Positions 4,122-46,309 of a stretch of 64,000 bases of DNA are shown here, in pieces. Each line of letters begins with the position of its first letter. Position 1 is the first letter of the stretch. The translations under genes and the position numbers were made by a program. Source of the DNA: Spirilliplanes yamanashiensis (lineage in GTDB: Bacteria; Actinomycetota; Actinomycetes; Mycobacteriales; Micromonosporaceae); contig NZ_BOOY01000009.1 in assembly GCF_016863475.1 (NCBI RefSeq), positions 1 to 64,000 of the forward strand. Direction: 5' to 3'. The notes under the pieces are model-generated. The model had not been told where the DNA came from. It saw only the letters and a list, made by a program, of their open reading frames with translations, and ran no database searches.

Positions 4122-4162
4122 AGGCTTTCACGGCGCATCGACCGGGGAAAGGGCGATGCGCG

Positions 4163-23377: not shown

Positions 23378-23463
23378 ATGAGACGGAAGGGAGTCTGCTG
23401 TACGGCTATGACATCCGGCAATACGTCAGAGTGCCGTTAAATCGACGCCGGTCGCTCCGACTG

Positions 23464-26961: not shown

Positions 26962-27276
26962 TGATGAACTCCCCCGTGTTGACCGCCGGAATCCTCACGG
27001 ATGCGGCGCGAGGCTGTCCACCCCGTCCGCGTGCGCGCGCACATACTCACGCAATGTGGTGGCAGGCAGCGACCGAGCGTTACGGGAAGGTTGTCCGCAT
27101 TCGGACCAGCTGCGATGTCCGTTCCGTCTGGCCTCCGCCGAAAGGTCAGCCGCCCGCACACTTCAGCTCGCGGCTCTTGTGTGACGCTCAGTAGCTGTCC
27201 TACGGTGTTTCCAGCACGTTAATGACGCTGAGTGACCGCTCGATCGTCCCGTCCCCCCGGAAGGCGCTCCGCGACC

Positions 27277-28485: not shown

Positions 28486-28938
28486 GTGACGCTCGCCCGC
28501 GGTCACCGCGTGTCAGGATCGGATCACACCTGCTGGAGGTACGCGTTGCCCATCGAGTCCCCGACGGCGAACGTCGCCCGGTTCTACGCCGAGGCGTGGA
28601 CCCAGCGCGACCCGTCCGCGGTCCGCCGGATCATCGCGCCGTGCGCCGAGATCGAGTGGAACCTCGACCTGCCCGTCGACGACGAGCAGCTCGTGCAGAC
28701 GCTCGACCGGCTCGCGGCGAGCGCCCGGTCGGTCGCGCTGGTGTCGGAGACGTACGCCGGCGAGCGGGCCACGATGCTGTACGACTGCGCCGGGGTGTTC
28801 GGCAGCGCCCGGGTGGCGGAGTTCCTGGTGGTCGCCGACGGCCGGATCACCGAGGTGCGCCAGGTGTGGGATCCGACGGCCGTGCGCCGCTACTTCCCGG
28901 ACCTGCTGGAGGACGTCAGCCCTCCCCCAGCCCCTTGA
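28486..28938 (+). CDS. SnoaL-like / NTF2-fold small protein
   Basis: The ~150-aa ORF has the (A)RFYAEAW...DP motif typical of the SnoaL/ketosteroid-isomerase-like fold. The start is uncertain. Confidence 0.45.
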   Translation: MTLARGHRVSGSDHTCWRYALPIESPTANVARFYAEAWTQRDPSAVRRIIAPCAEIEWNLDLPVDDEQLVQTLDRLAASARSVALVSETYAGERATMLYDCAGVFGSARVAEFLVVADGRITEVRQVWDPTAVRRYFPDLLEDVSPPPAP

Positions 28939-30541: not shown

Positions 30542-31008
30542 CCCGCCCCCTTCCGCCACACCAGGTGTCCTCCTATCGGCACGCCGGAGCGGATGCTGAG
30601 AAAACGCCCCGGGCATGACACCGGTCACAGCACTGCCGGGTGTCAATATGCGCTCGTCAGCGAATTGACGGTCCGATGTGGATCTCCCATTCACGTGACG
30701 GAAAGCTGACCTGACCACGCGGCGTATTCCCAACGGTGCACCGGGTCGTTAGCTTGTCCACTGTGGGACGACGCTTGAGGGATCAGGCGGGGGCATCGTG
30801 GCGCGCGGAGGTGGACGTGACCAGGGGTGATGTTCGGTCGGCGCCAGGCTGACCGGAGCGCGGCGGCGCCGCCGCCGGATGACACGCATTTTTCTTCACA
30901 TTTCCGCGTAACCGCTGGGCCATTCCGGCCGGCGGTAGGTCAGCGCGCGCATTTCCTTCCCGGGGCGGCCCCTCGGGAGCTCCGGCGCGCCCATTTCCGG
31001 GAGAGATC

Positions 31009-32973
31009 ATGAATCGTCGTCGCATTGTCGCCGCGGTCGTGGCCGCGGCCCTCGTGGCCACCGGCGCGGCGCCGGCCGCGGCCGACCCGACCGCGGACCC
31101 GCCCGCCGACCCGCGCGTGGACCTGGCGGTGCTGGTGGTCACCGACGGCGGCGCCGCCACCCAGGCCGTCGCCGCCCACCTGACCGCGCAGGGCGTGCCG
31201 CACCGCACCGTGCGCCTCGACGACCCGGGCCGCCCCGCCATCGACGCCGCCTTCCTGGCCGACGCCGACGGCGCGAACTTCCAGGGCGTCGTGCTGCCCA
31301 ACGCGAACCCGTTCGCCGACCAGGCCGAGCTGGCCGCGCTGCACGCGTTCGAGGCGCGGTACGGCGTCCGCCAGGTCGACGCGTACCTGTGGCCGACGCC
31401 GCAGGTCGGGCTCAACTACCCGGCGTACTCGGGGCCGCTCGACGGCACCACCGCCGCCGCCACCGCCGAGGGGCTGGCCGGGCCGTTCCGCTACCTGCGC
31501 GGGCACGTCCCGTTCGAGGACAACGACCCGGGCCTGTGGGAGAGCTACGGGTTCCTGGCGCAGCCGCTGGTGGACGCGCCGGACACGTTCACGCCGCTCG
31601 TCACCACGGTGGCCCCCGACGGCACGGCGGGCGTGCTGGCCGGCGTCTTCGGCAGCGGCGGGCGCGAGGAGCTGGCGGTGACGTTCGCGTACAACGCCGC
31701 CCAGCAGCAGTTCCGGCTGCTGGCGCCCGGCATGGTCGAGTGGCTCACCCGCGGCGTGCACCTCGGCCTGCACCGCAACCACCTGTCGGTGCACGTGGAC
31801 GACGTCTTCCTCGGCGACGCCCGCTGGCACACCGGCGGCAACTGCACCCCGGGTGAGGACTGCACCGGCGGGCAGACCACCGCCGACATCCGGATGACGG
31901 CGGACGACGTCGCGTACGCCGCGCAGTGGCAGGAGCGCTCCGGCTTCACGCTCGACCTGGTCTACAACGGCGCCGGCAGCGACGAGGCCGGCCCGGGCGA
32001 CCCGCTCACGGCCGCGCTGCTGGCGGCGCGCGACAGGTTCCGCTGGACGAACCACACCTACAGCCACGACTTCCTGGGCTGCGTCCAGGACACCACCGTC
32101 GTCCCGTGGCGGTGCGCGACCGGCCCGGACGGCGCCGTCCGCTACGCCACCGGGGCGCACATCGCCGACCAGGTCGCCCGCAACCGGGCGTGGGGCCTGG
32201 CCCGCGGCCTGCCGCTGGTCGAGGGAGAGCTGGTCACCGGCGAGCACTCTGGCCTGCGGGTGCTGCCCCAGCAGCCGGCGGACAACCCGGACCTGGCGCC
32301 CGCCCTGGACACCACCCAGGTCCGCTGGCTGGCCGCCGACAACTCGCGGCAGCCCGCCCAGCGGGCCGTCGGCGGGGCGCTGACCGTGCCCCGGCACCCG
32401 CTGAACGTCTTCTTCAACGTCGGCACCGCCGCCGAGGAGACCGACGAGTACAACTGGATCTACACCGCCCGCGCCGACGGCGGCAGCGGCGTCTGCGAGG
32501 ACAACCCGGCCACCGTCACCTGCGTGCCGCCGCTGGACCCCGCCACCGGGTACGCCGAGGTCATCGTGCCGCTGGAGACGCGGCTGGCGCTCGCCCGCAT
32601 CCTCGGCAACGACCCGCGGCCGCACTACGTGCACCAGTCGAACCTGGCCGAGGAGCGCATCCTCTACCCGCTGCTCGACAGCATCCTCGGCACGTACCGC
32701 TCGCTGCTGGCCGACAACACGCCCATCGTGTGCGCGCGGCTGGCCGACAGCGGCGCGGAGTTGCGGCGCCAGGCCCGGTGGGCGGACGCGGTGGCCGCCG
32801 GGACGGCGCACGCCTATTTGCAGGACGGCGTCGTGCACGTCACCGCGCCCGACGGCGTCGACGTGCCGCTGACCGTGCCCGAGGGCAGCACTGTGGACGG
32901 TGCCGCGTTCGGCACGGCGTACGCCGGATCGCGCTCGGCCTGGACGACCACCGCGCGGGTGTTCGTGCCGTGA
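31009..32973 (+). CDS. Secreted 654-aa protein, candidate metal-dependent polysaccharide deacetylase (PelA-DA / Agd3-like?)
   Basis: A signal peptide MNRRRIVAAVVAAALVATGAAPAAA is present. HVDDVF (Asp-Asp motif) and WTNHTYSHDF (H-x3-H) are spaced as in metal-dependent CE-type deacetylases. The gene sits directly upstream of the PelF-like GT with a 4-nt overlap. The functional call is inference. Confidence 0.5.
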   Translation: MNRRRIVAAVVAAALVATGAAPAAADPTADPPADPRVDLAVLVVTDGGAATQAVAAHLTAQGVPHRTVRLDDPGRPAIDAAFLADADGANFQGVVLPNANPFADQAELAALHAFEARYGVRQVDAYLWPTPQVGLNYPAYSGPLDGTTAAATAEGLAGPFRYLRGHVPFEDNDPGLWESYGFLAQPLVDAPDTFTPLVTTVAPDGTAGVLAGVFGSGGREELAVTFAYNAAQQQFRLLAPGMVEWLTRGVHLGLHRNHLSVHVDDVFLGDARWHTGGNCTPGEDCTGGQTTADIRMTADDVAYAAQWQERSGFTLDLVYNGAGSDEAGPGDPLTAALLAARDRFRWTNHTYSHDFLGCVQDTTVVPWRCATGPDGAVRYATGAHIADQVARNRAWGLARGLPLVEGELVTGEHSGLRVLPQQPADNPDLAPALDTTQVRWLAADNSRQPAQRAVGGALTVPRHPLNVFFNVGTAAEETDEYNWIYTARADGGSGVCEDNPATVTCVPPLDPATGYAEVIVPLETRLALARILGNDPRPHYVHQSNLAEERILYPLLDSILGTYRSLLADNTPIVCARLADSGAELRRQARWADAVAAGTAHAYLQDGVVHVTAPDGVDVPLTVPEGSTVDGAAFGTAYAGSRSAWTTTARVFVP

Positions 32974-34385
32974 GGGTCGCGATGGTCACGGAGGGCACCT
33001 ACCCGCAGGCGTTCGGGGGCGTCAGCGTGTGGTGTGACCAGCTCGTGCGCGGCCTGCCCCGGACCGACTTCGACGTGTACGCGATCAGCGTCACGGGCCG
33101 CGAGCCGGACGCGTGGGAGCTGCCCGACTCCGTGACCGTCCACCATGTACCGCTGTGGGGACCGGCGCCGCGGCAGTCGCGCCGGTCCACCGTGGACGTC
33201 GCCGACGCGCACCGGGCGCTGATCCGGTCGCTGCTGGCGCCGCCCGGCGAGGCCGAGCCCGCGTTCGCCGCGGCGCTCCGGCGGTTGTGCGAGCTGGCCC
33301 CCGCCCCGATGCCGGCGGGCGACGCGCCGGTGCGGTGGCTGCTGGACGCGTGGCGGGACAGCTCGCTCGCGTCCGAAGTGGACGTGCGCCCGTCGATCCT
33401 CGACGCACTGACCTGTGTGGACATCGTCGGGCACTGGCTGCGCCCGCTGCTGCGGCCGGCGCCCGTCGCCGACGTGTGCCACGCCGTCACCAACGGGCTG
33501 GCGGCGCTGCCGGCGCTGGCCGCGAAGTGGACCCGCGGCACCCCGCTGCTGCTCACCGAACACGGCGTCTACCTGCGGGAACGCTACCTGGGCCTGCGGG
33601 CGGCCGACAGCTCGTGGCCGGTCAAGGCGGTGCTCGTGGCGTTCCAGCGGCTGCTGTGCACGGCCGCGTACCGCGAGGCCGACCTCATCACCCCGGGCAA
33701 CCGGTACAACCACCGCTGGGAGACGCGGTTCGGCGCGTTGCCCGAGCGCATCCGCACCGTCTACAACGGAGTCGACCCGGCCGACTTCCCGCCCGCCGGC
33801 CGCGAACCCGCCGTGCCGACCATCACCTGGGCCGGTCGCGTCGACCCCATCAAGGACCTGGAGACGCTGATCCGGTCGTTCGCGCTGGTGCGCGAGCAGA
33901 TCCCGGACGCCCGGCTGCGCATCTTCGGCGGCACCCCGGCCGGCGCCCGCGGCTACCACGACCGGTGCGTGGCGCTGGCCGCCGAGCTGGGCGCCGCGGA
34001 CGCGGTGACGTTCGAGGGCCGGGTGGCGAACATCCGCGACGCGTACGCGGCCGGGCACGTCGTCGTGCTGTCCAGCATCTCGGAGGGTTTCCCGTACACC
34101 CTCATCGAGGCGATGACCTCGGGCCGGGCCACCGTGTCGACCGACGTGGGCGGGGTCGCCGAGGCGGTCGCCGACACCGGCTTCGTGGTGCCGCCGCGGG
34201 ACCCGGCCGCCATGGCGGAGCGGTGCGTCACGCTGCTGCGCGACGAGCTGCTGCGGCACCGGCTGGGCGCGGCCGCCCGCGACCGGGCGCTGCAGAACTT
34301 CACCGTCGACCAGGCCGTGGACGCGTTCGACGAGATCTACGCCGACCTGGCCGGGCTCGCCGCGGCGCCGGCGGTGGCGGCGTGA
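32970..34385 (+). CDS. GT4 glycosyltransferase with PelF-type N-terminal extension
   Basis: The N-terminus VRVAMVTEGTYPQAFGGVSVWCDQLVRGLP resembles the PelF/DUF3492 opening. A C-terminal GT4 EX7E-like region SEGFPYTLIEAMTSGRATVSTDVGG is present. Confidence 0.75.
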   Translation: MRVAMVTEGTYPQAFGGVSVWCDQLVRGLPRTDFDVYAISVTGREPDAWELPDSVTVHHVPLWGPAPRQSRRSTVDVADAHRALIRSLLAPPGEAEPAFAAALRRLCELAPAPMPAGDAPVRWLLDAWRDSSLASEVDVRPSILDALTCVDIVGHWLRPLLRPAPVADVCHAVTNGLAALPALAAKWTRGTPLLLTEHGVYLRERYLGLRAADSSWPVKAVLVAFQRLLCTAAYREADLITPGNRYNHRWETRFGALPERIRTVYNGVDPADFPPAGREPAVPTITWAGRVDPIKDLETLIRSFALVREQIPDARLRIFGGTPAGARGYHDRCVALAAELGAADAVTFEGRVANIRDAYAAGHVVVLSSISEGFPYTLIEAMTSGRATVSTDVGGVAEAVADTGFVVPPRDPAAMAERCVTLLRDELLRHRLGAAARDRALQNFTVDQAVDAFDEIYADLAGLAAAPAVAA

Positions 34386-35734
34386 GCGCGTACCCCGAGC
34401 TGTCCCGGCGCATGGCGCCGGTCTGCGCCGAGGCGGTCGACGACATGGAGGTCGCCGCGGTCCTGGAGTCCGACGGCGTCACCGACGCGACCGCGGACCG
34501 GCTGTACGGCTCCCCCGACGTGTTCCACCTGGCCCGGCGGCTGCGGGCCGACCACCCGCGCCGGCCGTCCGCCGTGCCGCCCGCCCCCGGCCCGTGGCGC
34601 GCCCAGCCGTGGCGGCACCTGCTGCGCGGTGTCCTGTTCGGACTGCCCGCGGTGTGCTACCTCGCGGTCAGCGGGGTCGCGGCGGGCCGGCGGGCCGGCG
34701 TCGTGCTCGTCGTGTCCGTCCTGCTGTCGTGGGCGGCGAGCCAGGCGCTCGCGTACCTCGGGCACGTGCGGCTCGGCTGGGGCGACCGCGACGGCGCGGC
34801 CCGCGTGCTGCGCGGCGGGCTGCTCGGCCTCGGCGCGGCCGTGCTCGCGGCGACGGCGGCGACCGCGGCCGCGCTGCACGTCCCGGCGCCGGTGACGCTC
34901 GTCGCCGCCGCGCAGGTCACCTACCTGCTGGCCGCCACCGTGGCGCTGGTGCTCGGCGCGGAGTGGCTGCTGGTGGCCGCGCTGGCCCCGGGCGTGGGCG
35001 CCGCCGTGACCGGGGTGCTGCTCGGCGGCGACGCGGTGCGCTCGGCGCCCGTGGTGTGCGGGGCCGTCGGCACCGTGCTCGCCTCCGTCGCGGCGGCGCT
35101 GTGGGTGACCCGCGGCGCCCGGCCCGGCCCGCCCACCCGGGCCGAGCTGCGCGACGCCCTGCCGCACGCCGCGTTCGGGCTGTGCGTCGCCGGGCTGCTG
35201 CTGTTCGTGCCCGCCGCCCGCACCCTGCCGCCGCCCGGCGTGGTGGACGGCGGCCCGGGCGGCGCCGCCGCCGGGCTGGCCGCGCTCGTGCCGCTGTCGG
35301 TCAGCATGGGCGTCGCCGAGTGGCTGCTCGTGCGGTACCGGGCCGACACCCACCGCTGGCTGCAACGCGCCGTGACGCTGCGCCAGTTCGCGGCGCGCGC
35401 CTCGCTGGCGCTGGCCCGCGGCACCGCCGTCTACCTCGCCGTCCTGGTCGCCGGGGTCGCCGCGGGCGCGCTGCTGGTCACCCGGGCCGCCCCCGCCGCC
35501 CTGGCCGGATACGTCGCCCTCGGCGCGGCCCTGTTCGTCGCGCTGCTGCTCATGACGTTCCGGGTGCGCGGGCCCGTCGTCGCCGGGGCCGCCGCCGCGC
35601 TCGCCGCCGACGCCGCGCTGCTCACCGCCCACCCCGATCCCGACCGGGTCCAGCTGATCACCGCGGGCGCCCTGTTCCTGGGCCTGGCCGCGTACGCCTC
35701 GGTCGCGCTGTCCCGCGCGCACCGCCACCTGTAG
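34382..35734 (+). CDS. Polytopic membrane protein, PelG-like (putative polysaccharide exporter)
   Basis: The ~450-aa ORF has ~10-12 predicted TM helices. Its GTG start overlaps the GT stop (GTGA). Its position after the PelF-like gene mirrors pelF-pelG. Confidence 0.6.
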   Translation: MSAYPELSRRMAPVCAEAVDDMEVAAVLESDGVTDATADRLYGSPDVFHLARRLRADHPRRPSAVPPAPGPWRAQPWRHLLRGVLFGLPAVCYLAVSGVAAGRRAGVVLVVSVLLSWAASQALAYLGHVRLGWGDRDGAARVLRGGLLGLGAAVLAATAATAAALHVPAPVTLVAAAQVTYLLAATVALVLGAEWLLVAALAPGVGAAVTGVLLGGDAVRSAPVVCGAVGTVLASVAAALWVTRGARPGPPTRAELRDALPHAAFGLCVAGLLLFVPAARTLPPPGVVDGGPGGAAAGLAALVPLSVSMGVAEWLLVRYRADTHRWLQRAVTLRQFAARASLALARGTAVYLAVLVAGVAAGALLVTRAAPAALAGYVALGAALFVALLLMTFRVRGPVVAGAAAALAADAALLTAHPDPDRVQLITAGALFLGLAAYASVALSRAHRHL

Positions 35735-35748
35735 AGAGAGGGAACGCC

Positions 35749-36741
35749 ATGACAACGGTCGCCGTCACCGGTGCCGAGGGCTTCATCGGCTCGCACCTGA
35801 CCGAGCGCCTGGTCGCCGCGGGCCACCGCGTCCGCGCGATGGTGCAGTACAACTCGTTCGACACCCGCGGCTGGCTGGACACCCTCGGCGCCGACGTGCT
35901 CGCCGACGTCGACGTGGTGGCCGGCGACGTCGAGGACCCGGCCACCGTCGCGCAGCTCGTCGAGGGCGCCGAGGTCGTCTACCACCTGGCCGCGCTCATC
36001 GCGATCCCGCACTCCTACCGGGCGCCGCGCTCGTACGTGAACACCAACGTCATCGGCACCCTCAACGTGCTGGAGGTGGTGCGCGCGGGCGGGGCCGGGC
36101 GGCTCGTGCACACCTCCACGTCGGAGACGTACGGCACCGCGCGCACCGTGCCGATCCGCGAGGACCACCCGCTGCAGGCGCAGTCGCCGTACGCCGCCAG
36201 CAAGGTCGCCGCCGACAAGCTGGTCGAGAGCTACCACCTCAGCTTCGGGGTGCCCGCGGTGACGCTGCGCCCGTTCAACACGTTCGGCCCCCGGCAGTCG
36301 GCGCGGGCCGTCATCCCGACCGTGGTCAGCCAGCTCGCGGCCGGCGCGGCCGAGATCCGGCTCGGCGCCCTCGACCCGACCCGCGACTTCACGTTCGTGC
36401 AGGACACCGCCGCCGCGTTCCACGCCGTCGGCACCGCGCCCGCCGACGTGGTGGTCGGCGAGACGTTCAACGCGGGCACCGGCGACGAGATCTCCATCGG
36501 CGCCCTGGCCGCCACCATCGGCGAGCTGATGGGCCGGCCGGTGCCGGTGCGCCCGCAGGACGACCGGCTGCGCCCGGCGAACTCCGAGGTCATGCGGCTG
36601 GTCTGCGACAGCCGCAAGCTGCGCGCCGCCACCGGCTGGGCGCCGCTGTTCGACCTGGCCGACGGCCTCAAGCACACCATCGACTGGTTCCTCGACCCGG
36701 CCAACCTGGCCCGCTACCGCACCGACGGGTACGTCCTCTAA
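35749..36741 (+). CDS. NAD-dependent sugar-nucleotide epimerase/dehydratase (extended SDR)
   Basis: A Rossmann motif VTGAEGFIGSHL and a YAASKVAAD (YxxxK) motif are present. A strong SD GAGAGAGGG lies upstream. Confidence 0.85.
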   Translation: MTTVAVTGAEGFIGSHLTERLVAAGHRVRAMVQYNSFDTRGWLDTLGADVLADVDVVAGDVEDPATVAQLVEGAEVVYHLAALIAIPHSYRAPRSYVNTNVIGTLNVLEVVRAGGAGRLVHTSTSETYGTARTVPIREDHPLQAQSPYAASKVAADKLVESYHLSFGVPAVTLRPFNTFGPRQSARAVIPTVVSQLAAGAAEIRLGALDPTRDFTFVQDTAAAFHAVGTAPADVVVGETFNAGTGDEISIGALAATIGELMGRPVPVRPQDDRLRPANSEVMRLVCDSRKLRAATGWAPLFDLADGLKHTIDWFLDPANLARYRTDGYVL

Positions 36742-36756
36742 CCGAAGGGAACTGCC

Positions 36757-37479
36757 ATGCACGCGGTCATCCTCGCCGGCGGCAAGGGGGTGCGGCTGCG
36801 GCCGTACACCACGTCCCTGCCCAAACCGCTGGTCCCGATCGGGGACCGGTACTCCATCCTCGAGATCATCATGCGGCAGCTGGCGGGCTGCGGCTTCCGC
36901 ACCGCCACCCTCGCCATCGGCCACCTCGGGCACCTCATCCGCGCGTACGTGGGCGACGGCTCCCAGTGGGGCCTGGAGCGGGTCGACTACCAGTCGGAGG
37001 ACTCGCCGCTCGGCACGATCGGGCCGCTGCTGGCCATGCGGGACAGGCTGCCGGAGACGTTCCTCGTGATGAACGGCGACGTGCTCACCGACCTCGACTA
37101 CGGCGACCTGCTCAAGCGGCACGTCGGCTCGGGCGCGGCGCTGACCGTGGCGACCTACCCGCGCCAGGTGAAGATCGACTTCGGGGTCCTCACCAGCAGC
37201 GGCGGGCGCATCGTCGACTTCGTCGAGAAGCCCACCATCGACTACCACGTCAGCATGGGCGTCTACGGGATGTCCGCGTCCGCCCTCGGTCACTACACGC
37301 CCGGCCTGCCGCTCGGCTTCGACGAGCTGGTCCTCGACCTGCTCGCCACCGGCTCCGGCCCGGACGAGTACCGCTTCGACGGCCGCTGGCTCGACATCGG
37401 CCGCCCCGACGACTACGACCGGGCGAACGCCGAGTTCGAGCTGCTCGGCCCCCTGCTGCTGCGGCAGCCGGCGCCGTGA
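36757..37479 (+). CDS. Sugar-phosphate nucleotidyltransferase (NDP-sugar pyrophosphorylase)
   Basis: ILAGGKGVRLRPYT..PKPLVPI is the canonical nucleotidyltransferase signature. Confidence 0.85.
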   Translation: MHAVILAGGKGVRLRPYTTSLPKPLVPIGDRYSILEIIMRQLAGCGFRTATLAIGHLGHLIRAYVGDGSQWGLERVDYQSEDSPLGTIGPLLAMRDRLPETFLVMNGDVLTDLDYGDLLKRHVGSGAALTVATYPRQVKIDFGVLTSSGGRIVDFVEKPTIDYHVSMGVYGMSASALGHYTPGLPLGFDELVLDLLATGSGPDEYRFDGRWLDIGRPDDYDRANAEFELLGPLLLRQPAP

Positions 37480-38345
37480 GGATCGTGCTGTTCGGCGGCG
37501 CCGGCTTCCTCGGCCGGCACGTCGCCGCGGCGCTGACCGGCCACGACGTGGTCGCGCCGGCGCGGTCCGCCGTCGACCTGACGGCCGGGCCGGAGGCGAT
37601 CGCGGGGCTGCTGCGCGGCGCGGACGCGATCGTCAACTGCGCCGGTGTCACGACGGGCCCGGCGGCGGGGCTGGCCGCCGGGAACGTCGTGGCCGTGGCG
37701 CACCTGCTCACCGCGTGGGAACGCGCCGAGCCGGGCGCCCGGCTCGTCCACCTGGGCTCGGCCGCCGAGTACGGCGCGGCCGCGCCGGGCCGCCCGGTGG
37801 CCGAGACCGACGAGCCGGAACCCGTCTCCGCGTACGGGCACAGCAAGCTCGCCGGCACCGCCCTGGTGGCGGCGGCGCACCGGCGCGGCCTGCCCGCGAC
37901 CGTGCTGCGGGTGTTCAACCCGCTCGGCCCGGGCACCCCGGCGGCGCTGCTGCCCGGGCGGCTCGTGGCCGGCCTGCGGGCCGCCGCGGACGGCGGCCCG
38001 CCCGCGACGACGGGCCCGCTGGACGGCCACCGCGACTTCGTGGACGCCCGCGACGTCGCGGCGGCCGTGCGCACCGCCGCGACCGCCCGCGCCCCGCTGC
38101 CCGCCCTGCTCAACGTGGGCAGCGGCCGCGCCACCGCCCTGCGCGACCTGGCCGGGCTGGCGGCGGCGCTGGCCGAGCAGCCCCCGCCCGCCGAGCTGGG
38201 CGGCGGGTCGGCCCGGTCGGCGGCCGTGACGTGGCAGCAGGCCGACCTGGCCCGGGTCACGGCGGCGCTGGGCTGGCGCCCCCGCGTGCCGCTGGCGCAG
38301 TCGCTGCGCGACATGGGCCTCGGCGTCCGGGCCGCGGTGCCGTGA
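37476..38345 (+). CDS. NAD(P)-dependent epimerase/reductase (SDR, RmlD-like size)
   Basis: VLFGGAGFLGRHV and SAYGHSKLAG (YxxxK) are present. The gene is 289 aa and overlaps the upstream stop by 4 nt. Confidence 0.7.
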   Translation: MRIVLFGGAGFLGRHVAAALTGHDVVAPARSAVDLTAGPEAIAGLLRGADAIVNCAGVTTGPAAGLAAGNVVAVAHLLTAWERAEPGARLVHLGSAAEYGAAAPGRPVAETDEPEPVSAYGHSKLAGTALVAAAHRRGLPATVLRVFNPLGPGTPAALLPGRLVAGLRAAADGGPPATTGPLDGHRDFVDARDVAAAVRTAATARAPLPALLNVGSGRATALRDLAGLAAALAEQPPPAELGGGSARSAAVTWQQADLARVTAALGWRPRVPLAQSLRDMGLGVRAAVP

Positions 38346-38998
38346 CCGGCGGCGTGACCGGCGGTGTGGTGGTGCCCGCCTACTTCCACCCGGCCGTGGC
38401 CGCCGGGGCGTGGCGGGCGCTGGCCGCGGCGGGCGACGCCGTGCGCGCGGTCGTGTTCAACGTGGACAGCGGGCCCGGCGCCGCCCCCGAGCGGGAACTG
38501 CTCGCCGTGGCGGCCCGGCTGCGGGTGCCCGTGCTCGGCTACGTCGACGCCGGCTACGGCGCCCGGCCCGCCGCCGACGTCGTCGCGGACCTCGCCCGGC
38601 ACCGCGCCTGGTACCCGGTCACCGGCGTCTTCCTCGACCGGGTGCCCGCCGGCCCCGCCCACCTGTCGCACTGCGCCGCGCTCGCCGCCGCCGCCCGCCG
38701 GCACGGCCTGCCCCAGGTCGTCTTCAACCACGGCGTCCACCCGCACCACGGCTACGCGGCCCTCGCCGACGCCCTCGTCACCTTCGAGGGCCCGGCCACC
38801 GCGCACCGCGACGTCGCCGCCCCCCGCTGGGTCCGCGACCACCCGGCCGCGATGTTCTGGCACCTCGTCCACGACTGCCCGCCGGACGAGGCCGCCGCCG
38901 TGCGCACCCGCGCCGCGGCCCACCACGCGGGCATGGTCTACGCCACCGACCGGCGGGGGGTGAACCCGTGGGACGGGCTGCCCTCGTGGCCGCTGTGA
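38342..38998 (+). CDS. Spherulin-4 family protein (GH135 / Sph3-like putative glycoside hydrolase)
   Basis: VVVPAYFHPAVAAGAW...VVFNVDSGPG...LGYVDAGYGARP...GVFLDR match the family-defining motifs of spherulation-specific family 4. Confidence 0.6.
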   Translation: MTGGVTGGVVVPAYFHPAVAAGAWRALAAAGDAVRAVVFNVDSGPGAAPERELLAVAARLRVPVLGYVDAGYGARPAADVVADLARHRAWYPVTGVFLDRVPAGPAHLSHCAALAAAARRHGLPQVVFNHGVHPHHGYAALADALVTFEGPATAHRDVAAPRWVRDHPAAMFWHLVHDCPPDEAAAVRTRAAAHHAGMVYATDRRGVNPWDGLPSWPL

Positions 38999-39753
38999 CC
39001 CTCGCCCTCGGCGGCTGCCAGCCCCCGCCCGCGCCCCCGCCGCCACCCGCGGGCCGCTGGGCTCCGGCCCCCGGCACCACCTGGCAGTGGCAGCTCACCG
39101 GCGCCGTCGACGTCACCGTCGACGCCGCCGTGTTCGACGTCGACGGCTTCACCACGCCCGCCGCCACCGTCCGCGAGCTGCACGCCCGCGGCCGCAAGGT
39201 CATCTGCTACATCTCCGTCGGCTCCGCCGAGGACTTCCGCCCCGACGCCCACCGCTGGCCCCCCGCCGTGCTCGGCAGACCCCTGCCCGGCTGGCCCGGC
39301 GAACGCTGGCTCGACATCCGCGACCCCGAACGGCTCGCCCCGGTCCTGCGCCCCCGCCTCGACATGTGCCGCGACAAGGGCTTCGACGGCGTCGAGCCGG
39401 ACATCATGGACGCCTACCGCCACGACACCGGCTTCCCTCTCACCGCCGCCCACCAGCTCGCCTTCAACCGCTGGATCGCCCGCGAGGCCCACGCCCGCGG
39501 CCTGGCCGCCGGCCTGAAGAACGACCTCGACCAGGTGCCCGCCCTGGTCGCCGACTTCGACTTCGCGGTCAACGAGGAGTGCGCCGCCTACGCCGAGTGC
39601 GCCGCCCTGACCCCGTTCGTGGCCGCCGGCAAGGCCGTCTTCCACGCCGAGTACGACCTCGACCCGGCCGCCTACTGCCCGGCGACGACCCGGCTGGGGC
39701 TCAGCTCGATCCGCAAGGACCGTGACCTGGGCCCCCGGCTGCGGCGCTGCTGA
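38968..39753 (+). CDS. GH114 family endo-alpha-1,4-polygalactosaminidase-like lipoprotein (PelA-hydrolase / Ega3-like)
   Basis: A lipobox-like LALGGC precedes RKVICYISVGSAEDFRPD and FDGVEPDIMD (GH114 catalytic region pattern). Confidence 0.75.
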   Translation: MGRAALVAAVTLALGGCQPPPAPPPPPAGRWAPAPGTTWQWQLTGAVDVTVDAAVFDVDGFTTPAATVRELHARGRKVICYISVGSAEDFRPDAHRWPPAVLGRPLPGWPGERWLDIRDPERLAPVLRPRLDMCRDKGFDGVEPDIMDAYRHDTGFPLTAAHQLAFNRWIAREAHARGLAAGLKNDLDQVPALVADFDFAVNEECAAYAECAALTPFVAAGKAVFHAEYDLDPAAYCPATTRLGLSSIRKDRDLGPRLRRC

Positions 39754-39780
39754 CCCGCCCGCCCGCGGTCGCCTAGTACG

Positions 39781-40686
39781 GTGCTGACCGTGGAATACGT
39801 TCCCTTCGACCAGCGCACGCCCGACCCGCAGTACCACTCCCTGCTCGCGCGGGTGCTGTCCGACGGGGAGGAGGTGCCCACCCGGCAGGGTCCGGCCGCG
39901 TACACGCTCATGCAGCAGGCGATGCGGTTCGACCTGGCCAACGGGTTCCCCGTGATCACGAACCGCAGCATCCGGTCGTTCTGGCGCAAGCCGATCGGGG
40001 AGCTGTGCGCGTTCATCAACGGGGCCACCACGCTCGCCGAGCTGGAGAAGTTCGGCTGCGACTGGTGGGGGGCCTGGGCGACCGAGGCGAAGACGAGCAA
40101 GCGCGGCTTGCCGCCCGGCGACATCGGGCCCGGCTCGTACGGTGGGGCGTTCCACGACTTCCCGACGAGCGAGGGGCCGGGCTTCGACCAGTTCGCGCAC
40201 CTCGTGGAGCAGATCCGGGAGCTGCCGGGCGACCGGACGCACTTCGTGTCGCCGTGGATCCCGCAGTACCAGGTGCGCGGCGCGGGCAAGACGCCGCGGA
40301 CGACGATCGCGCCGTGTCACGGGTGGGTGCACGTGCGGGTCATCCGGGGGCGGCTGCACCTGCACATGTTCCAGCGCTCCGGTGACCTGCCGGTCGGCGT
40401 GCCGTCCAACATGATCCAGTACGCGGCGCTGCTGCTGATGCTCGAGCACCTGACCGGCTACCCGGCGGCGACGTATTACCACACGATCTCCGACGCCCAC
40501 ATCTACGCCGACCAGGCCGACGCGGTGCGTGAGCTGCTGACCCGGCCCGCGCTGCGGCTGCCCACCGTGCACCTGAACGACGCGGGGCGGGCGGTGACGG
40601 ACATCCACGACTTCCGCGCCGAGCACTTCGATCTCAGCGACTACGAGCCGCACCCGTCGATGCCGCGGATCCCGGTGGCGCCGTGA
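39781..40686 (+). CDS. thyA: Thymidylate synthase (ThyA family, divergent with ~30-aa insertion)
   Basis: RFDLANGFPVITNR, IAPCHGWVHV, MFQRSGDLPVGVPSN (Asn of PFN retained) and HFDLSDYEPHPSMPRIPVA are all present. Confidence 0.85.
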   Translation: MLTVEYVPFDQRTPDPQYHSLLARVLSDGEEVPTRQGPAAYTLMQQAMRFDLANGFPVITNRSIRSFWRKPIGELCAFINGATTLAELEKFGCDWWGAWATEAKTSKRGLPPGDIGPGSYGGAFHDFPTSEGPGFDQFAHLVEQIRELPGDRTHFVSPWIPQYQVRGAGKTPRTTIAPCHGWVHVRVIRGRLHLHMFQRSGDLPVGVPSNMIQYAALLLMLEHLTGYPAATYYHTISDAHIYADQADAVRELLTRPALRLPTVHLNDAGRAVTDIHDFRAEHFDLSDYEPHPSMPRIPVAP

Positions 40687-41210
40687 GCTGGGAGAACGTG
40701 TCGACGTCGCTGATCGTGGCGGCGGACGAGGTGGACCTGATCGGGCGGTCCGACGGCAGCCTGCCGTGGCACCTGCCGTCGGACATGCGGCACTTCCAGC
40801 AGCTCACGAACGGGCACGTGGTGGTCGCGGGGCGGCTCACCCACGACTCGATCATGGCGAAGCTGGGGCGGCCGCTGCCGGGCCGGTTCACGGTGGTGGT
40901 CACCCGGCGGACGGGGCTGCCGCCGGTACCGGGGGTGACGTACCAGCCGGACATCGCGTCGGCGATGACGACGGCGCGCGGCATCGAGGGGTTCGCCGGC
41001 CGGCGTCAGCTGTTCGTCATCGGCGGGGCGCAGGTGTACGCACAGGCGCTGCCGTTCGTCGACCGGGTGTTCCTGACCCGGGTGCACACCCACGCCCACG
41101 GCGACGTGCACATGCCGGAGGGCTGGCTGGACGCGTTCCGGCTGGTCAAGGCGGAGAAGAGCGACGCCGACCAGATCGCCGTCACCTACTCGGAGTACGT
41201 CCGGTCCTGA
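40683..41210 (+). CDS. folA: Dihydrofolate reductase
   Basis: LIVAADEVDLIGRSDGSLPWHLPSDMRHFQQLT and VVAGRLTHDS match the DHFR pattern. The gene overlaps the thyA stop by 4 nt. Confidence 0.85.
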   Translation: MSWENVSTSLIVAADEVDLIGRSDGSLPWHLPSDMRHFQQLTNGHVVVAGRLTHDSIMAKLGRPLPGRFTVVVTRRTGLPPVPGVTYQPDIASAMTTARGIEGFAGRRQLFVIGGAQVYAQALPFVDRVFLTRVHTHAHGDVHMPEGWLDAFRLVKAEKSDADQIAVTYSEYVRS

Positions 41211-41641
41211 TGTCCTTCTACCACCTGGAGAACTCGCGCAGCGAGGAGCAGACCGCGGAGATGCGGCGGCTCGACGCGGCGGGGGTGTGCCTGTTCTGCC
41301 CCGGGCACCTGGAGGCGAACCAGGAGGTCCTGCACCGGGCGGCGCACTGGGCGGTCACGCCGAACCGGTTCCCGTACCCGAACGCGGCGCGGCACCTGCT
41401 GCTGGTGCCGGACGCGCACGTGACGGGCATGACGCAGCTCGCGCCCGCGGCCCGGCTCGGCTTCTTCACCGCCCTGGAGTGGGTGGAGGCGCAGTTCGGC
41501 CTGGTGCACTACGGCGTCGGGGTGCGCAACGGCGACTCGCCGCTGACCGGTTCGACCATCCGGCACCTGCACGTGCACGTGATCGTGGGCGACCTGGGCG
41601 GCGAACCGGTGCGGTTCAGGATGAGCCGGCCACCCAGATGA
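41210..41641 (+). CDS. HIT-superfamily nucleotide hydrolase/transferase
   Basis: A CLFCPGH Zn-like motif and the histidine triad HLHVHVI are present. The ATG overlaps the folA stop (ATGA). Confidence 0.6.
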   Translation: MSFYHLENSRSEEQTAEMRRLDAAGVCLFCPGHLEANQEVLHRAAHWAVTPNRFPYPNAARHLLLVPDAHVTGMTQLAPAARLGFFTALEWVEAQFGLVHYGVGVRNGDSPLTGSTIRHLHVHVIVGDLGGEPVRFRMSRPPR

Positions 41642-42443
41642 GTTCGACGCCGGCCTCGCGCAGCACGCGGTCGCCGTCGAGCATCGCGTACGGCCCGGCG
41701 ACGTAGCAGCGCCGGAACCCGGCGGCGGCCACCAGCCGGGCGCAGGCCGGGCACGGGAACGTCGTCACGTACAGGTCGGCGCCGGCCAGGCTGCGGCCCT
41801 CGCGGGCGGCGTCGGCGACGATGCCGGCCTCGGCGTGCAGGGCGGTGGACAGGTCCCAGCGCAGGCCGCGGCTGTACTCGTTGCGCGGGTCGCCGTCGGC
41901 GTACGGGGCGTACTCGGTGGGCTGGTGGGTGTTGTGGGCGACCGCGATGACCTCGCCGTCGCGGGCGGCGACGGCGCCGACCTGCCGCCACCAGTCGGAG
42001 CTGCGCGCCGCCTCGGCGGTGGCGCGGCCCATGAGCAGGCGGGACAGGTCGTCGGCGGCGACCTCGCCGTCGAAGCCGGCGGGGCGGGCGGCCTGCGCCC
42101 AGGCGCGGTCCCAGCGCAGGAACGTGGGCTCGTACACGGCGGTGAGCCCGTACCGCTGGACGACCCGGCGCATGAGGTCTTCGTCGGGGACGATGAGGGT
42201 CTGCGCGGTGACCGCCGCGGGCAGGTCGCCGCGCTCGACGACGCGGGCCTTCGCGCGGCCGGCGGCGACGAGGTAGTGCGCGGCCCGCTCGGGGTCGAGG
42301 GCGCGGATCTCCTTGGTGAGCGCCTTCTCCTCGGCGGCGAAGCTGCGCCCGAGCAGCAGCACCTCGGCGCCCGGGTGCCGGTCGAACAGCGCCTCGTAGC
42401 CGGCGTGCAGCACCGGAAGGTACAGCAGGAGCTGCTCAGTCAC
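41616..42443 (-). CDS. Two-domain protein with C-terminal CMP/dCMP-type cytidine-deaminase zinc-binding domain
   Basis: HAEAGIVADAARE and PCPACARLV carry the H(A)E and PCxxC zinc ligands. An N-terminal ~110 aa is of unknown function. Confidence 0.7.
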   Translation of the reverse strand: MTEQLLLYLPVLHAGYEALFDRHPGAEVLLLGRSFAAEEKALTKEIRALDPERAAHYLVAAGRAKARVVERGDLPAAVTAQTLIVPDEDLMRRVVQRYGLTAVYEPTFLRWDRAWAQAARPAGFDGEVAADDLSRLLMGRATAEAARSSDWWRQVGAVAARDGEVIAVAHNTHQPTEYAPYADGDPRNEYSRGLRWDLSTALHAEAGIVADAAREGRSLAGADLYVTTFPCPACARLVAAAGFRRCYVAGPYAMLDGDRVLREAGVELIWVAGSS

Positions 42444-44713: not shown

Positions 44714-46309
44714 GTGGTGGACGGTTCGGTCGCCGAGTTCGAGCAGCTCGCCGCCGGGTTGACCGCGCTCGAGGACAGGTTCGTGTGGGACGTCGCGGCG
44801 ACGCTCGACGCGGCCGAGCGCCTGGAGCGCGAGGCGGCGCTGCTCGGCGACGAGGAGCTGGCGGTCCGCGCCCGCCTCGTGCAGGCCAACATGTGGATGC
44901 GCCGGGGCGACATCGCGGCCGCCGCCCGCCGCATGCGCGAGATCGACCAGTGGGCGGACGAGAACGACCGGTCGATGATCCGAGCGCGCGCCCAGCTGCT
45001 GCTCACGAGCGTGCACCACCTGCTCGGCGACCCCGCCACCAGCCTGGAGCACGCCATCCGCGCCGTCGAGTACCTGGACGCCGGCGCGACGCCGCACGCC
45101 ACCGTGTGGCACCGGGTGAAACTGGCCGACGCGCTGGCCGAGGCGGGCTCGATCGCGGCGGCGCGCACCCGCTACGAGCAGGCCGAACAGCTCGCCGCCG
45201 CGCACGGCGCGCACCGGCTGCACATGGCGGTGCTCAACAACCGCGCCTACTCCGAGTACGCCGCCGGCGAGCACGAGCAGGCCGCCGCGGTGGTGGACCG
45301 GCTGCGGGCGAAGGCGGCGGCGCACGGGTTCCCGCTCGACCCGGCCGACCTCGACACGATCGGCAACATCCAGATCGGCAACCACCGGTACGCGGACGCC
45401 GAGCGCACGCTGCACGCCTGCATCGCCCTGCACGCCGAGGGCCGGCACGGCACCGCCGACCAGCTCGCCGAGTACCTGCTGACGCTCTGCCGGGCGCAGC
45501 GCGGGCTGGGCGCGACCGAGCGGGCGCAGCACACGCTGGACGCCAGCCGGCGGATCTGCGAGGAGCGCGGGCTCGGCGAGGTGCTCGTCCGGGTGCACCA
45601 GGAGCAGGCCGAGCTGCACGCCGCCCGGGGCGAGTTCGCGCAGGCGTACGCAGTGCACAAGGCGTTCTTCGCCGCCTACGACCGGTTGCACTCGTCGCGG
45701 CGGGAGGCGCAGGCGCGCACCCGGCAGGCGATGTTCGAGACGGCCGAGGCGCGCGAGGAGGCCGAGCGCTTCCGCGAGCAGGCCCGCCGCGACCCGCTGA
45801 CCGGGCTGCGCAACCGCCGGTTCGTCGACGAGCAGCTGCCCGCGCTCATCGCCGACCCGGGCGCGCCGGTGACCATCGCGATCCTCGACCTCGACCACTT
45901 CAAGCGGGTCAACGACGAGCTGTCGCACGACGTCGGCGACCAGGTGCTGCGCGTGGTGGCGGGCCTGCTGGACGCGGAGGTGGCCGAGCTGGCGCCGGCC
46001 GGGTTCGCGGCGCGCCTGGGCGGCGAGGAGTTCCTGCTGGCGCTGCCCGGACTGACCGCCGCGACCGCGGTGGCCTGCCTCGACCTGCTGCGGGTGCGGA
46101 TCCGGTCGTACCCGTGGGCGGAGGTGACCGGGCGCCTGCCGGTGACGGTGAGCATCGGCGCGGCCAGCACCGACGACGAGGTGGAACCGACCCAGCGCGG
46201 CCTGCTGTCCACAGCGGACAGCAACCTGTACGCGGCCAAGCGCGGCGGCCGCGACCGCGTGGTGACGGGCGCCGCGCACGGGCTGCGGCGGCACCGGAGC
46301 GGGGCGTAG
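44714..46309 (+). CDS. Diguanylate cyclase (GGDEF) with N-terminal TPR-like helical sensor region
   Basis: RDPLTGLRNRRF...ILDLDHFKRVND...RLGGEEFLLAL carries the GGEEF active-site motif. Confidence 0.85.
   Translation: MVDGSVAEFEQLAAGLTALEDRFVWDVAATLDAAERLEREAALLGDEELAVRARLVQANMWMRRGDIAAAARRMREIDQWADENDRSMIRARAQLLLTSVHHLLGDPATSLEHAIRAVEYLDAGATPHATVWHRVKLADALAEAGSIAAARTRYEQAEQLAAAHGAHRLHMAVLNNRAYSEYAAGEHEQAAAVVDRLRAKAAAHGFPLDPADLDTIGNIQIGNHRYADAERTLHACIALHAEGRHGTADQLAEYLLTLCRAQRGLGATERAQHTLDASRRICEERGLGEVLVRVHQEQAELHAARGEFAQAYAVHKAFFAAYDRLHSSRREAQARTRQAMFETAEAREEAERFREQARRDPLTGLRNRRFVDEQLPALIADPGAPVTIAILDLDHFKRVNDELSHDVGDQVLRVVAGLLDAEVAELAPAGFAARLGGEEFLLALPGLTAATAVACLDLLRVRIRSYPWAEVTGRLPVTVSIGAASTDDEVEPTQRGLLSTADSNLYAAKRGGRDRVVTGAAHGLRRHRSGA

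What the first reader, a model, noticed from the sequence alone, without database searches (positions are those of the whole stretch)
38342..39753. Adjacent GH135-like (spherulin-4) and GH114-like hydrolase genes, the Sph3/Ega3 pairing otherwise characteristic of fungi
The two genes overlap (38968 vs 38998). The first has the spherulin-4 motifs VVPAYFHP...GAW, NVDSGPG, LGYVDAGY and GVFLD. The second has the GH114 ICY(I/F)S.GS.ED(F/W)RPD and DGV(E/F)PD(I/V)MD blocks behind a lipobox. Two distinct endo-acting hydrolases for one polymer imply processing of both acetylated and deacetylated regions, as shown for Sph3 vs Ega3.
Basis: partly seen in the sequence, partly recalled or inferred. Interest (0 to 1): 0.5.

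Follow-up and report, generated by a model that had tools for sequence, protein, structure and literature searches.

The report
Bacterial GAG/Pel-like exopolysaccharide operon hydrolases
The two genes are a real GH135 (Sph3-like) and GH114 (Ega3-like) hydrolase pair, but they are the last two genes of an eight-gene polysaccharide operon that is common in actinomycetes and was already listed in 2020, so the pairing is neither fungus-specific nor new.

Summary
Observation confirmed. Window 38342-38998 (+) encodes a spherulin-4/GH135 protein (Pfam 100.9 bits against a cutoff of 30.2; the AlphaFold model's best fold match is Sph3, TM 0.80). Window 38968-39753 (+) encodes a GH114 lipoprotein that is 44% identical to Aspergillus Ega3. 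Both keep the catalytic Asp/Glu pair.

Interpretation partly supported. The window comes from Spirilliplanes yamanashiensis (Micromonosporaceae). The pair closes a tightly coupled eight-gene operon: Agd3-like CE18 deacetylase, PelF-type GT4, MOP-fold membrane protein, SDR, sugar-1-P nucleotidyltransferase, SDR, GH135, GH114. At least 575 bacterial species genomes encode a GH135 relative, and 66 of the best 80 loci have GH114 directly downstream. Bamford et al. 2020 (Nat Commun, Supplementary Data 2) list this same gene order for Actinoplanes sp. SE50/110. "Otherwise characteristic of fungi" is therefore wrong.

One thing I did not find discussed: the bacterial GH135 has no signal peptide in the window or in nearly all of the other loci (Streptomyces, Micromonosporaceae), whereas GH114 is a lipoprotein and the deacetylase is secreted. 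The two hydrolases may therefore act on opposite sides of the membrane. GH135 would meet the fully acetylated chain inside the cell and GH114 the deacetylated polymer outside. This is inferred, not shown.

Verdict: a new member of a known kind that has been described only computationally. Interest is low to moderate.

The parts
31009..32973 (+). g1: secreted Agd3-like (CE18-type) polysaccharide de-N-acetylase, 654 aa, with N-terminal signal peptide MNRRRIVAAVVAAALVATGAAPAAA
   Evidence: The only significant PDB sequence hit is 6nwz Agd3 (E 3.8e-7; profile E 5.7e-8). There is a weak CBM87_Agd3 Pfam hit. Agd3 motifs are kept and invariant in 13 orthologues: CM1 DD (D264, D265), CM2 HxxxH (H349, H353), CM4 His (H542). 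One N-terminal hydrophobic segment.
32970..34385 (+). g2: cytoplasmic PelF-type GT4 glycosyltransferase (DUF3492 + GT1/GT4 domains)
   Evidence: Pfam DUF3492 at 149.5 bits and Glyco_trans_1_4 at 111.9 bits. NCBIfam NF038011 PelF equivalog at 146.6 bits, above its cutoff of 100. No TM segment. The GTGA start overlaps the g1 stop.
34382..35734 (+). g3: polytopic membrane protein, 450 aa, with a roughly 60-aa N-terminal helical soluble domain; presumed exporter or platform for the polymer
   Evidence: No Pfam or NCBIfam hit, even at E 10. All 86 homologues are 'hypothetical' with no Pfam domain. AlphaFold model pLDDT 91.1. The PDB fold hits with meaningful TM scores are almost all MOP-superfamily transporters: MATE 4mlb TM 0.53, WzxE 9g9n, MurJ. 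About 10-12 hydrophobic helices.
35749..36741 (+). g4: extended-SDR nucleotide-sugar enzyme (4,6-dehydratase-like or 4-epimerase)
   Evidence: Pfam Epimerase and GDP_Man_Dehyd. Best NCBIfam hit is TIGR04180 LegB-type 4,6-dehydratase at 430.8 bits, below its cutoff of 475; GalE scores only 136 bits. PDB neighbours are a mix of GalE and dTDP-glucose 4,6-dehydratase.
36757..37479 (+). g5: sugar-1-phosphate nucleotidyltransferase
   Evidence: Pfam NTP_transferase at 113.8 bits. Nearest solved structures are UTP-glucose-1-P uridylyltransferase and mannose-1-P guanylyltransferases.
37476..38345 (+). g6: SDR, reductase- or epimerase-like
   Evidence: Pfam Epimerase at 117.3 bits. Nearest solved structures are GDP-6-deoxy-D-lyxo-4-hexulose reductase 2pk3 and GDP-6-deoxy-D-mannose reductase 6x3b. 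GTGA overlap with g5.
38342..38998 (+). g7: leaderless GH135 / spherulin-4 (Sph3-like) protein, 218 aa (214 aa from the NCBI start at 38354)
   Evidence: PF12138 at 100.9 bits. Profile against Sph3 5c5g gives E 5.5e-25. AlphaFold pLDDT 94.3 with eight beta-alpha units. Foldseek best hits are 5d6t/5c5g at TMq 0.80, E 4e-15; the next hit is at E 7e-5. D99 and E149 are invariant in 121 sequences. No signal peptide or TM segment. GTGA overlap with the g6 stop leaves no room for a leader.
38968..39753 (+). g8: GH114 (Ega3-like) lipoprotein; signal MGRAALVAAVTLALGG|C, then a Pro-rich linker, then the catalytic domain
   Evidence: PF03537 at 286.9 bits. Ega3 6oj1 E 3.1e-56, 43.6% identity over 211 positions. 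Ega3 D189/E247 align with D145/E203. Orthologues in other genera carry an LLLLAAC-type lipobox.

Best explanation
The two genes are the last two cistrons of one eight-gene, translationally coupled operon in Spirilliplanes yamanashiensis. The operon most likely makes and processes a cationic, partly de-N-acetylated hexosamine exopolysaccharide of the Pel / galactosaminogalactan type. Proposed order of events: g5, g4 and g6 supply a nucleotide sugar. The cytoplasmic PelF-type GT4 (g2) polymerises it at the inner face of the membrane. The MOP-fold membrane protein (g3) moves the chain out. The secreted Agd3-like CE18 enzyme (g1) removes some N-acetyl groups, which makes the polymer cationic and adhesive. 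The membrane-anchored GH114 lipoprotein (g8) cuts deacetylated (GalN-type) stretches at the cell surface. The GH135 (g7) keeps the Sph3 catalytic Asp/Glu but has no export signal, so it probably acts in the cytoplasm, where the chain is still fully acetylated. That is the substrate type Sph3 prefers, and the role would be chain-length control, release or clearance of the nascent polymer. Shown here: the family memberships, the catalytic residues, the operon structure, its conservation, and the presence or absence of signal sequences. Inferred: the identity of the polymer, the substrate split between the two hydrolases, and the cytoplasmic site of GH135 action.
For: Operon: all eight genes lie on the + strand with GTGA overlaps or gaps of 16 nt or less, and the NCBI gene calls agree. 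Family assignments. Catalytic residues. Conservation among the best 80 loci: 54 are Agd3-PelF-membrane-GH135-GH114, 7 are the eight-gene form with GH114, and 10 are the same form without an adjacent GH114. At least 575 species genomes hold a relative. Export signals: g1 has a signal peptide and g8 a lipobox. GH135 is leaderless in the window, and in Streptomyces in-frame stop codons lie only 10-18 codons upstream of strand beta-1 (L025, L026, L045, L013, L032, L040, L068, L078). Published context: Sph3 acts on acetylated GAG and Ega3 on deacetylated GAG (PMC11356417; PMC12054363). The same bacterial operon type is interpreted as exopolysaccharide biosynthesis in PMC7229062.
Against: No experiment exists for any bacterial member in the literature I could search. 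The polymer is unknown. g4 to g6 look at least as much like a sugar-1-P nucleotidyltransferase / 4,6-dehydratase / 4-reductase set as like Uge3-type epimerases, so the sugar need not be plain GalNAc. Some orthologues in the same operon type carry a Tat-like leader on GH135 (Actinocorallia L007, L017, L028, L048; metagenomic L081). The family can therefore work outside the cell, and leaderless versions might be exported by an unrecognised route. A cytoplasmic endo-hydrolase has no precedent that I know of in synthase-dependent exopolysaccharide systems (own knowledge). Sph3 Glu167 is Arg or Gln in the bacterial clade. The g3 match to MOP transporters is fold-level only (TM about 0.5).
Confidence: 0.65

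Rival explanations
1. The fungal model applies unchanged. Both hydrolases act outside the cell on the exported polymer, and the leaderless GH135 reaches the surface by a non-classical route.
For: Orthologues with Tat-like leaders sit in the same operon, with GH114 present (L081) or absent (Actinocorallia). Fungal Sph3 is membrane-anchored by an N-terminal TM domain.
Against: No leader is possible in the window, because g7 overlaps g6 as GTGA. None is possible in many Streptomyces loci, where stops lie 10-18 codons upstream. Hitch-hiking on the deacetylase through Tat is unlikely, because 66 of 73 Agd3 homologues show no twin-arginine motif and have Sec-type leaders.
Confidence: 0.2
2. The hydrolases are mainly antagonistic or catabolic. 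They would degrade foreign GAG or Pel from neighbouring fungi and bacteria in soil rather than process a self-made polymer.
For: A secreted endo-galactosaminidase is known from Streptomyces griseus, and the carriers share soil habitats with GAG-producing fungi (discussion in PMC7229062). Recombinant Ega3 and Sph3 disrupt foreign biofilms.
Against: The genes are translationally coupled to a glycosyltransferase, a membrane protein, a deacetylase and nucleotide-sugar enzymes, and this order is conserved across genera. GH114 is lipid-anchored rather than released, and GH135 is leaderless.
Confidence: 0.08
3. The leaderless GH135 is not a degradative hydrolase in vivo. It would be a cytoplasmic accessory of the PelF-type synthase, for example a transglycosylase, a primer-releasing enzyme or a scaffold.
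For: Sph3 is required for GAG synthesis in A. fumigatus, not only for its degradation. Transglycosylation is documented for GH114 and suggested for GH135. The operon lacks PelD and PelE, so other partners may be needed. The catalytic residues are strictly conserved.
Against: There is no direct evidence. The N. crassa GH135 mutant stayed adherent, so the requirement is not universal.
Confidence: 0.07

Closest known systems
Bacterial agd3-containing exopolysaccharide operons (Bamford et al. 2020, Nat Commun 11:2450; Supplementary Data 2: Actinoplanes sp. [quoted passage not shown]
   Same: The gene content and order match the Actinoplanes entry. The Actinoplanes sp. SE50 proteins are direct homologues of g7 (P0026, 55% identity) and g3 (P0149, 49% identity).
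   Different: A different genus (Spirilliplanes), not listed in that paper's searchable supplement. That paper is bioinformatic only. In the text I could read, it does not comment on the missing export signal of GH135, the PelF equivalog status of the GT, or the MOP fold of the TM protein.
Fungal galactosaminogalactan cluster (uge3, gtb3, agd3, ega3, sph3) of Aspergillus fumigatus and Neurospora crassa
   Same: Homologues of Agd3 (catalytic motifs kept), Ega3 (44% identity, D/E kept) and Sph3 (fold TM 0.80, D/E kept) are clustered with a glycosyltransferase and nucleotide-sugar SDR enzymes.
   Different: A separate PelF-type GT4 plus a MOP-fold membrane protein take the place of the single GAG synthase gene. 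GH135 is leaderless, not TM-anchored. GH114 is a lipoprotein. Sph3 Glu167 is Arg here. The SDR set does not look like a plain Uge3-type 4-epimerase.
Pel system (P. aeruginosa pelABCDEFG; Gram-positive pelDEA(DA)FG)
   Same: A PelF-equivalog glycosyltransferase is followed by a polytopic membrane protein. The expected product is a partly deacetylated cationic hexosamine polymer, and a deacetylase plus endo-hydrolase handle it after synthesis.
   Different: No PelD, PelE, PelB or PelC. The membrane protein does not match the PelG models. PelA (GH166 plus its deacetylase domain) is replaced by three separate proteins: CE18, GH135 and GH114.

Membership tests
GH135 (Sph3 / spherulin-4) | Matches Pfam PF12138 above its gathering score | tested here: met
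   100.9 bits against a cutoff of 30.2, covering residues 9-214
GH135 (Sph3 / spherulin-4) | (beta/alpha)8 barrel with Sph3 as the nearest solved fold | tested here: met
   AlphaFold pLDDT 94.3 with eight strand-helix units. Foldseek hits 5d6t/5c5g at TMq 0.80, E 4e-15, about ten orders of magnitude better than the next hit.
GH135 (Sph3 / spherulin-4) | Catalytic Asp (Sph3 D166) and Glu (Sph3 E222) | tested here: met
   D99 in GVFLD and E149 in TFEG align with them and are invariant in 121 sequences
GH135 (Sph3 / spherulin-4) | Third putative catalytic residue, Sph3 Glu167 | tested here: not met
   Arg100 in the window. Across 121 bacterial sequences the position is R in 66, Q in 53 and E in 2. 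Later papers name only the Asp/Glu pair as nucleophile and acid/base.
GH135 (Sph3 / spherulin-4) | N-terminal TM anchor, as in fungal Sph3 | tested here: not met
   No signal peptide or TM segment, and the start overlaps the g6 stop. Orthologues in other genera are leaderless too.
GH135 (Sph3 / spherulin-4) | Retaining endo-alpha-1,4-N-acetylgalactosaminidase activity | not testable with these tools
   Needs an enzyme assay on acetylated GAG or Pel
GH114 (Ega3-type endo-alpha-1,4-galactosaminidase) | Matches Pfam PF03537 and shows close sequence similarity to Ega3 | tested here: met
   286.9 bits. 6oj1 E 3.1e-56. 43.6% identity over 211 positions.
GH114 (Ega3-type endo-alpha-1,4-galactosaminidase) | Catalytic Asp189 and Glu247 of Ega3 | tested here: met
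   They align with D145 (DGVEPD) and E203 (VNEEC). The numbering assumes the 6oj1 chain is offset by 41 residues.
GH114 (Ega3-type endo-alpha-1,4-galactosaminidase) | Located outside the cytoplasm | tested here: met
   Lipoprotein signal MGRAALVAAVTLALGG|C. Most of the 66 orthologues with a recovered N-terminus carry an LAAC/LTAC-type lipobox (my regex flagged 59; others have variants it did not cover). This is a sequence-based prediction only.
GH114 (Ega3-type endo-alpha-1,4-galactosaminidase) | Specificity for deacetylated GalN stretches | not testable with these tools
   Needs an enzyme assay
Bacterial agd3-type exopolysaccharide operon (Bamford 2020) | Agd3 homologue with catalytic motifs, a cytoplasmic GT and a multi-spanning membrane protein in one operon, often with GH114 and in some Actinobacteria with spherulin-4 | tested here: met
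   g1 keeps CM1, CM2 and CM4 (CM3 Arg613 was not aligned). g2 is a GT with no TM segment. g3 is polytopic. g7 and g8 are assigned above. The order is identical to the published Actinoplanes sp. SE50/110 entry.
Pel system | PelF glycosyltransferase | tested here: met
   NCBIfam NF038011 equivalog at 146.6 bits, above its cutoff of 100
Pel system | PelG membrane protein | tested here: inconclusive
   g3 gave no Pfam or NCBIfam hit at all, even at E 10. The predicted fold is MOP-superfamily-like at TM about 0.5. By my own knowledge that is the superfamily PelG is assigned to.
Pel system | PelD c-di-GMP receptor, PelE, and a PelA-type GH166/deacetylase fusion | tested here: not met
   All eight operon genes are assigned to other families, and none is PelD-, PelE- or PelA-like
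Fungal GAG cluster | Single GAG synthase gene (Gtb3) and a Uge3-type UDP-Glc/GlcNAc 4-epimerase | tested here: inconclusive
   The synthase role is split between g2 and g3; I did not compare either with Gtb3 directly. The best model for g4 is a LegB-type 4,6-dehydratase, below cutoff, and GalE scores much lower.

The most novel reading that the evidence does not exclude
In most actinomycete versions of this operon the two hydrolases are separated by the membrane. A leaderless, catalytically intact GH135 would work in the cytoplasm on the nascent, still fully N-acetylated chain made by the PelF-type transferase. The GH114 lipoprotein would work outside the cell on polymer already deacetylated by the secreted Agd3 homologue. 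Substrate specificity would then be enforced by compartment. A cytoplasmic endo-glycosidase would become an integral part of a synthase-dependent exopolysaccharide machine, which differs from the fungal GAG and Pseudomonas Pel models.
Probability: 0.35. Interest if true: 0.5.

Novelty: new member of a known kind. Interest (0 to 1): 0.25.

Why it matters
Cationic GalNAc/GalN polymers (Pel, GAG) are major biofilm adhesins. The enzymes that cut them are being developed as anti-biofilm agents. These actinomycete operons are the suggested bacterial source of the fungal GAG cluster, yet none has been characterised experimentally. This locus adds one more clean example and confirms the active-site residues. 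It also points to two concrete, testable differences from the fungal model. First, the GH135 is leaderless. Second, the three-gene nucleotide-sugar module looks more like a 6-deoxy-sugar route than like simple 4-epimerases. The gene pairing itself is neither surprising nor new.

Tried and rejected
1. Tat hitch-hiking of the leaderless GH135 on the deacetylase. The window's g1 leader has RRRIV, but 66 of 73 Agd3 homologues (all the Streptomyces ones) show no twin-arginine motif and have Sec-type leaders. Rejected as a general mechanism.
2. A rule that a Tat-bearing GH135 replaces a missing GH114. Actinocorallia fits it. The metagenomic locus L081 has both a Tat-like GH135 and an adjacent GH114. 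Actinomadura and Allokutzneria have a leaderless GH135 and no adjacent GH114. Rejected.
3. The promoter and terminator consensus scan of 30500-42000 found nothing. This is uninformative for a genome at 75% G+C.
4. Family searches for g3 found nothing in Pfam or NCBIfam, even at E 10, and no homologue carries a Pfam domain. Only fold comparison gave a lead. The afdb50 library was not available.
5. The original JBC papers on Sph3 and Ega3 are not held. Catalytic residue numbers come from a review and from the GH191 paper. The GH191 paper prints 'Asp196' for Sph3, which I read as a misprint of Asp166.
6. thyA-folA-HIT follow g8 after only 27 nt. They accompany the operon only in the closest relative, L001, so I did not count them as part of the system.
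Full report
ORIGIN AND GENE MODELS. The window is about 75% G+C, so raw ORF lists are full of spurious frames. A third-position GC frame plot resolves one uninterrupted run of + strand genes from about 31.0 to 41.6 kb. The GH135 protein is 100% identical to a Spirilliplanes yamanashiensis (Micromonosporaceae) protein (P0001). The NCBI gene calls on that contig (654, 471, 450, 330, 240, 289, 214 and 255 aa) agree with my models apart from two start codons.

THE OBSERVATION. Genes 38342-38998 and 38968-39753 are real, and all the quoted motifs are present. Pfam gives Spherulin4 at 100.9 bits (cutoff 30.2) and Glyco_hydro_114 at 286.9 bits (cutoff 27).

GH135 (g7). A profile of 24 homologues hits A. 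clavatus Sph3 (5c5g) at E 5.5e-25. An AlphaFold model has mean pLDDT 94.3 and eight strand-helix units. Its best PDB matches are the two Sph3 entries (TMq 0.80, E about 4e-15); the next hit is at E 7e-5. Sph3 Asp166 and Glu222 align with D99 and E149, and both are invariant in 121 sequences. Sph3 Glu167 is replaced by Arg here, and by Arg or Gln in 119 of the 121. The GH191 paper names only the Asp/Glu pair as nucleophile and acid/base.

GH114 (g8). It matches Ega3 (6oj1) at E 3.1e-56 with 43.6% identity over 211 positions. Ega3 Asp189 and Glu247 align with D145 and E203. The N-terminus MGRAALVAAVTLALGG|C is a lipoprotein signal, followed by a proline-rich linker. NCBI starts the gene 18 nt later, which still leaves the lipobox.

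WHAT THE PAIR BELONGS TO. The pair is the end of an eight-gene operon.
- g1 (31009-32973) is a secreted protein. Its only PDB relative is the GAG deacetylase Agd3. It keeps the Agd3 motifs CM1 (DD), CM2 (HxxxH) and the CM4 histidine, as defined in PMC7229062.
- g2 (32970-34385) passes the NCBIfam PelF equivalog cutoff (146.6 against 100).
- g3 (34382-35734) is a polytopic membrane protein with no family assignment anywhere. Its confident model (pLDDT 91.1) resembles MOP-superfamily transporters almost exclusively: MATE, WzxE and MurJ, at TM about 0.45-0.53.
- g4, g5 and g6 are an SDR, a sugar-1-phosphate nucleotidyltransferase and a second SDR.
Junctions are GTGA overlaps at g1/g2, g2/g3, g5/g6 and g6/g7, or gaps of 16 nt or less. 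This indicates co-transcription and translational coupling.

CONSERVATION. In the best 80 loci (Streptomyces, Actinoplanes, Krasilnikovia, Actinomadura, Actinocorallia, Allokutzneria, Actinocrinis), tblastn with the window proteins gives these architectures:
- 54 are Agd3-PelF-membrane-GH135-GH114.
- 7 are the eight-gene form with GH114 (in one of them the membrane-protein hit fell below my filter).
- 10 are the eight-gene form without an adjacent GH114.
- The rest are truncated contigs.
In total GH114 lies directly downstream of GH135 in 66 of the 80.

PRIOR KNOWLEDGE. Bamford et al. [quoted passage not shown] Their Supplementary Data 2 lists "Actinoplanes sp. [quoted passage not shown] The first entry is exactly the window's architecture. 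PMC12054363 states that most members of GH114, GH135 and GH166 are bacterial. Pel-type pelF/pelG loci in Actinobacteria were also noted in PMC7112194. I found no experimental work on any actinomycete member. The claim that the pairing is "otherwise characteristic of fungi" is therefore wrong, and the locus is a new member of a computationally described kind.

WHAT MAY BE NEW. The bacterial GH135 has no export signal. In the window its start overlaps the stop of g6. In Streptomyces the protein begins MLLVPLYEHP, right at strand beta-1. In at least eight loci an in-frame stop lies only 10-18 codons upstream, which leaves no room for a leader. Fungal Sph3, by contrast, has an N-terminal TM domain. 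The deacetylase has a signal peptide, and GH114 is a lipoprotein in nearly every locus. The simplest reading is that GH135 is cytoplasmic. There it would meet only fully acetylated polymer, the substrate class reported for Sph3, whereas GH114 would meet deacetylated polymer outside the cell. It is an inference.

Caveats on the compartment split:
- Actinocorallia orthologues and a metagenomic orthologue carry Tat-like leaders within the same operon type, so the family can act outside the cell.
- Tat hitch-hiking on the deacetylase is unlikely, because most Agd3 homologues have Sec-type leaders.
- No rule links Tat leaders to the absence of GH114.

MECHANISM AND CONFIDENCE. I put about 0.85 on the operon being a Pel/GAG-like exopolysaccharide synthesis and modification system. 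I put about 0.65 on the full statement given as the best explanation, and about 0.35 on the cytoplasmic GH135 model specifically. The sugar identity is open. g4 scores best against a LegB-type 4,6-dehydratase model (430.8 bits, cutoff 475) and far lower against GalE. It has a T-S-E active-site triad (STSETYG), which by my own knowledge is typical of 4,6-dehydratases and decarboxylases rather than GalE. The nearest solved relatives of g6 are GDP-6-deoxy-4-hexulose reductases. The nearest relatives of g5 are UTP-glucose-1-P uridylyltransferase and mannose-1-P guanylyltransferases. The eight-gene variants may therefore add a 6-deoxy sugar. The 54 five-gene Streptomyces loci do without these three genes.

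VERDICT. The locus is a new member of a known kind. Interest is 0.25.

Noticed in passing
window 35749-38345 (g4, g5, g6): The three genes published as 'Epi, GTA, Epi' look more like a sugar-1-P nucleotidyltransferase, a 4,6-dehydratase-like SDR (best model LegB-type TIGR04180, 430.8 bits, just under its cutoff; STSETYG triad) and a 4-keto-reductase-like SDR (nearest solved: GDP-6-deoxy-4-hexulose reductase). That would be an NDP-6-deoxy-sugar route, not two 4-epimerases. The module is absent from the 54 five-gene Streptomyces loci.
   Followed up: partly
window 34382-34560 (N-terminal ~60 aa of g3); alignment A3: The membrane protein has a conserved, confidently modelled four-helix soluble N-terminal domain (H3-17, H21-30, H35-42, H47-57; invariant E23, L28, E29, G32, F48, L50) ahead of the transporter-like helices. 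Neither the domain nor the whole protein matches any family in Pfam or NCBIfam. It could be the docking site for the PelF-type transferase or for the leaderless GH135.
   Followed up: partly
L007, L017, L028, L048 (Actinocorallia) and L081:10001-10954: Some GH135 orthologues in the same operon type carry Tat-like leaders (for example VLSRRKILQIMSTAAVVPAAAA, or TSRRAVLRDFGSVLSAAAIMPM after a long N-terminal extension). Most genera are leaderless. The predicted location of one orthologous enzyme therefore differs between lineages.
   Followed up: partly
L006-L008, L010, L017, L023, L028, L030, L036, L048: Actinomadura, Actinocorallia and Allokutzneria have the operon up to GH135. In 8 of these 10 loci there is no GH114 within about 10 kb downstream; in L006 and L036 the contig ends soon after GH135. 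Whether GH114 lies elsewhere in those genomes was not checked.
   Followed up: no
window 39781-41641: thyA, folA (DHFR) and a HIT-family gene follow GH114 after only 27 nt, on the same strand with overlapping junctions. This link to the operon is seen only in the closest relative (L001) and not in Actinoplanes or Streptomyces.
   Followed up: partly
window 12638-23425 (-): A 3595-aa ORF has RHS repeats, Laminin-G/ConA-like domains, DUF6531 and a C-terminal pretoxin-HINT domain, which marks it as a polymorphic toxin. It sits in a stretch of clearly lower G+C (63-70% against about 75%), which suggests horizontal acquisition.
   Followed up: no
window 366-4127 (-) and 4163-10057 (-): A 1253-aa protein with an N-terminal TIR domain and WD40 repeats lies next to a 1964-aa protein with DUF3686 ('ATPase involved in DNA repair') and DUF7902. 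This could be a defence-type gene pair. It was not examined.
   Followed up: no
window 44714-46309 (+), 27232-28467 (+), 28916-30733 (-): A TPR-GGDEF diguanylate cyclase lies 5 kb downstream of the operon. A UDP-GlcNAc 2-epimerase and a ricin-B-lectin protein lie just upstream. The operon has no PelD-type c-di-GMP receptor, so any regulatory link is speculative.
   Followed up: no
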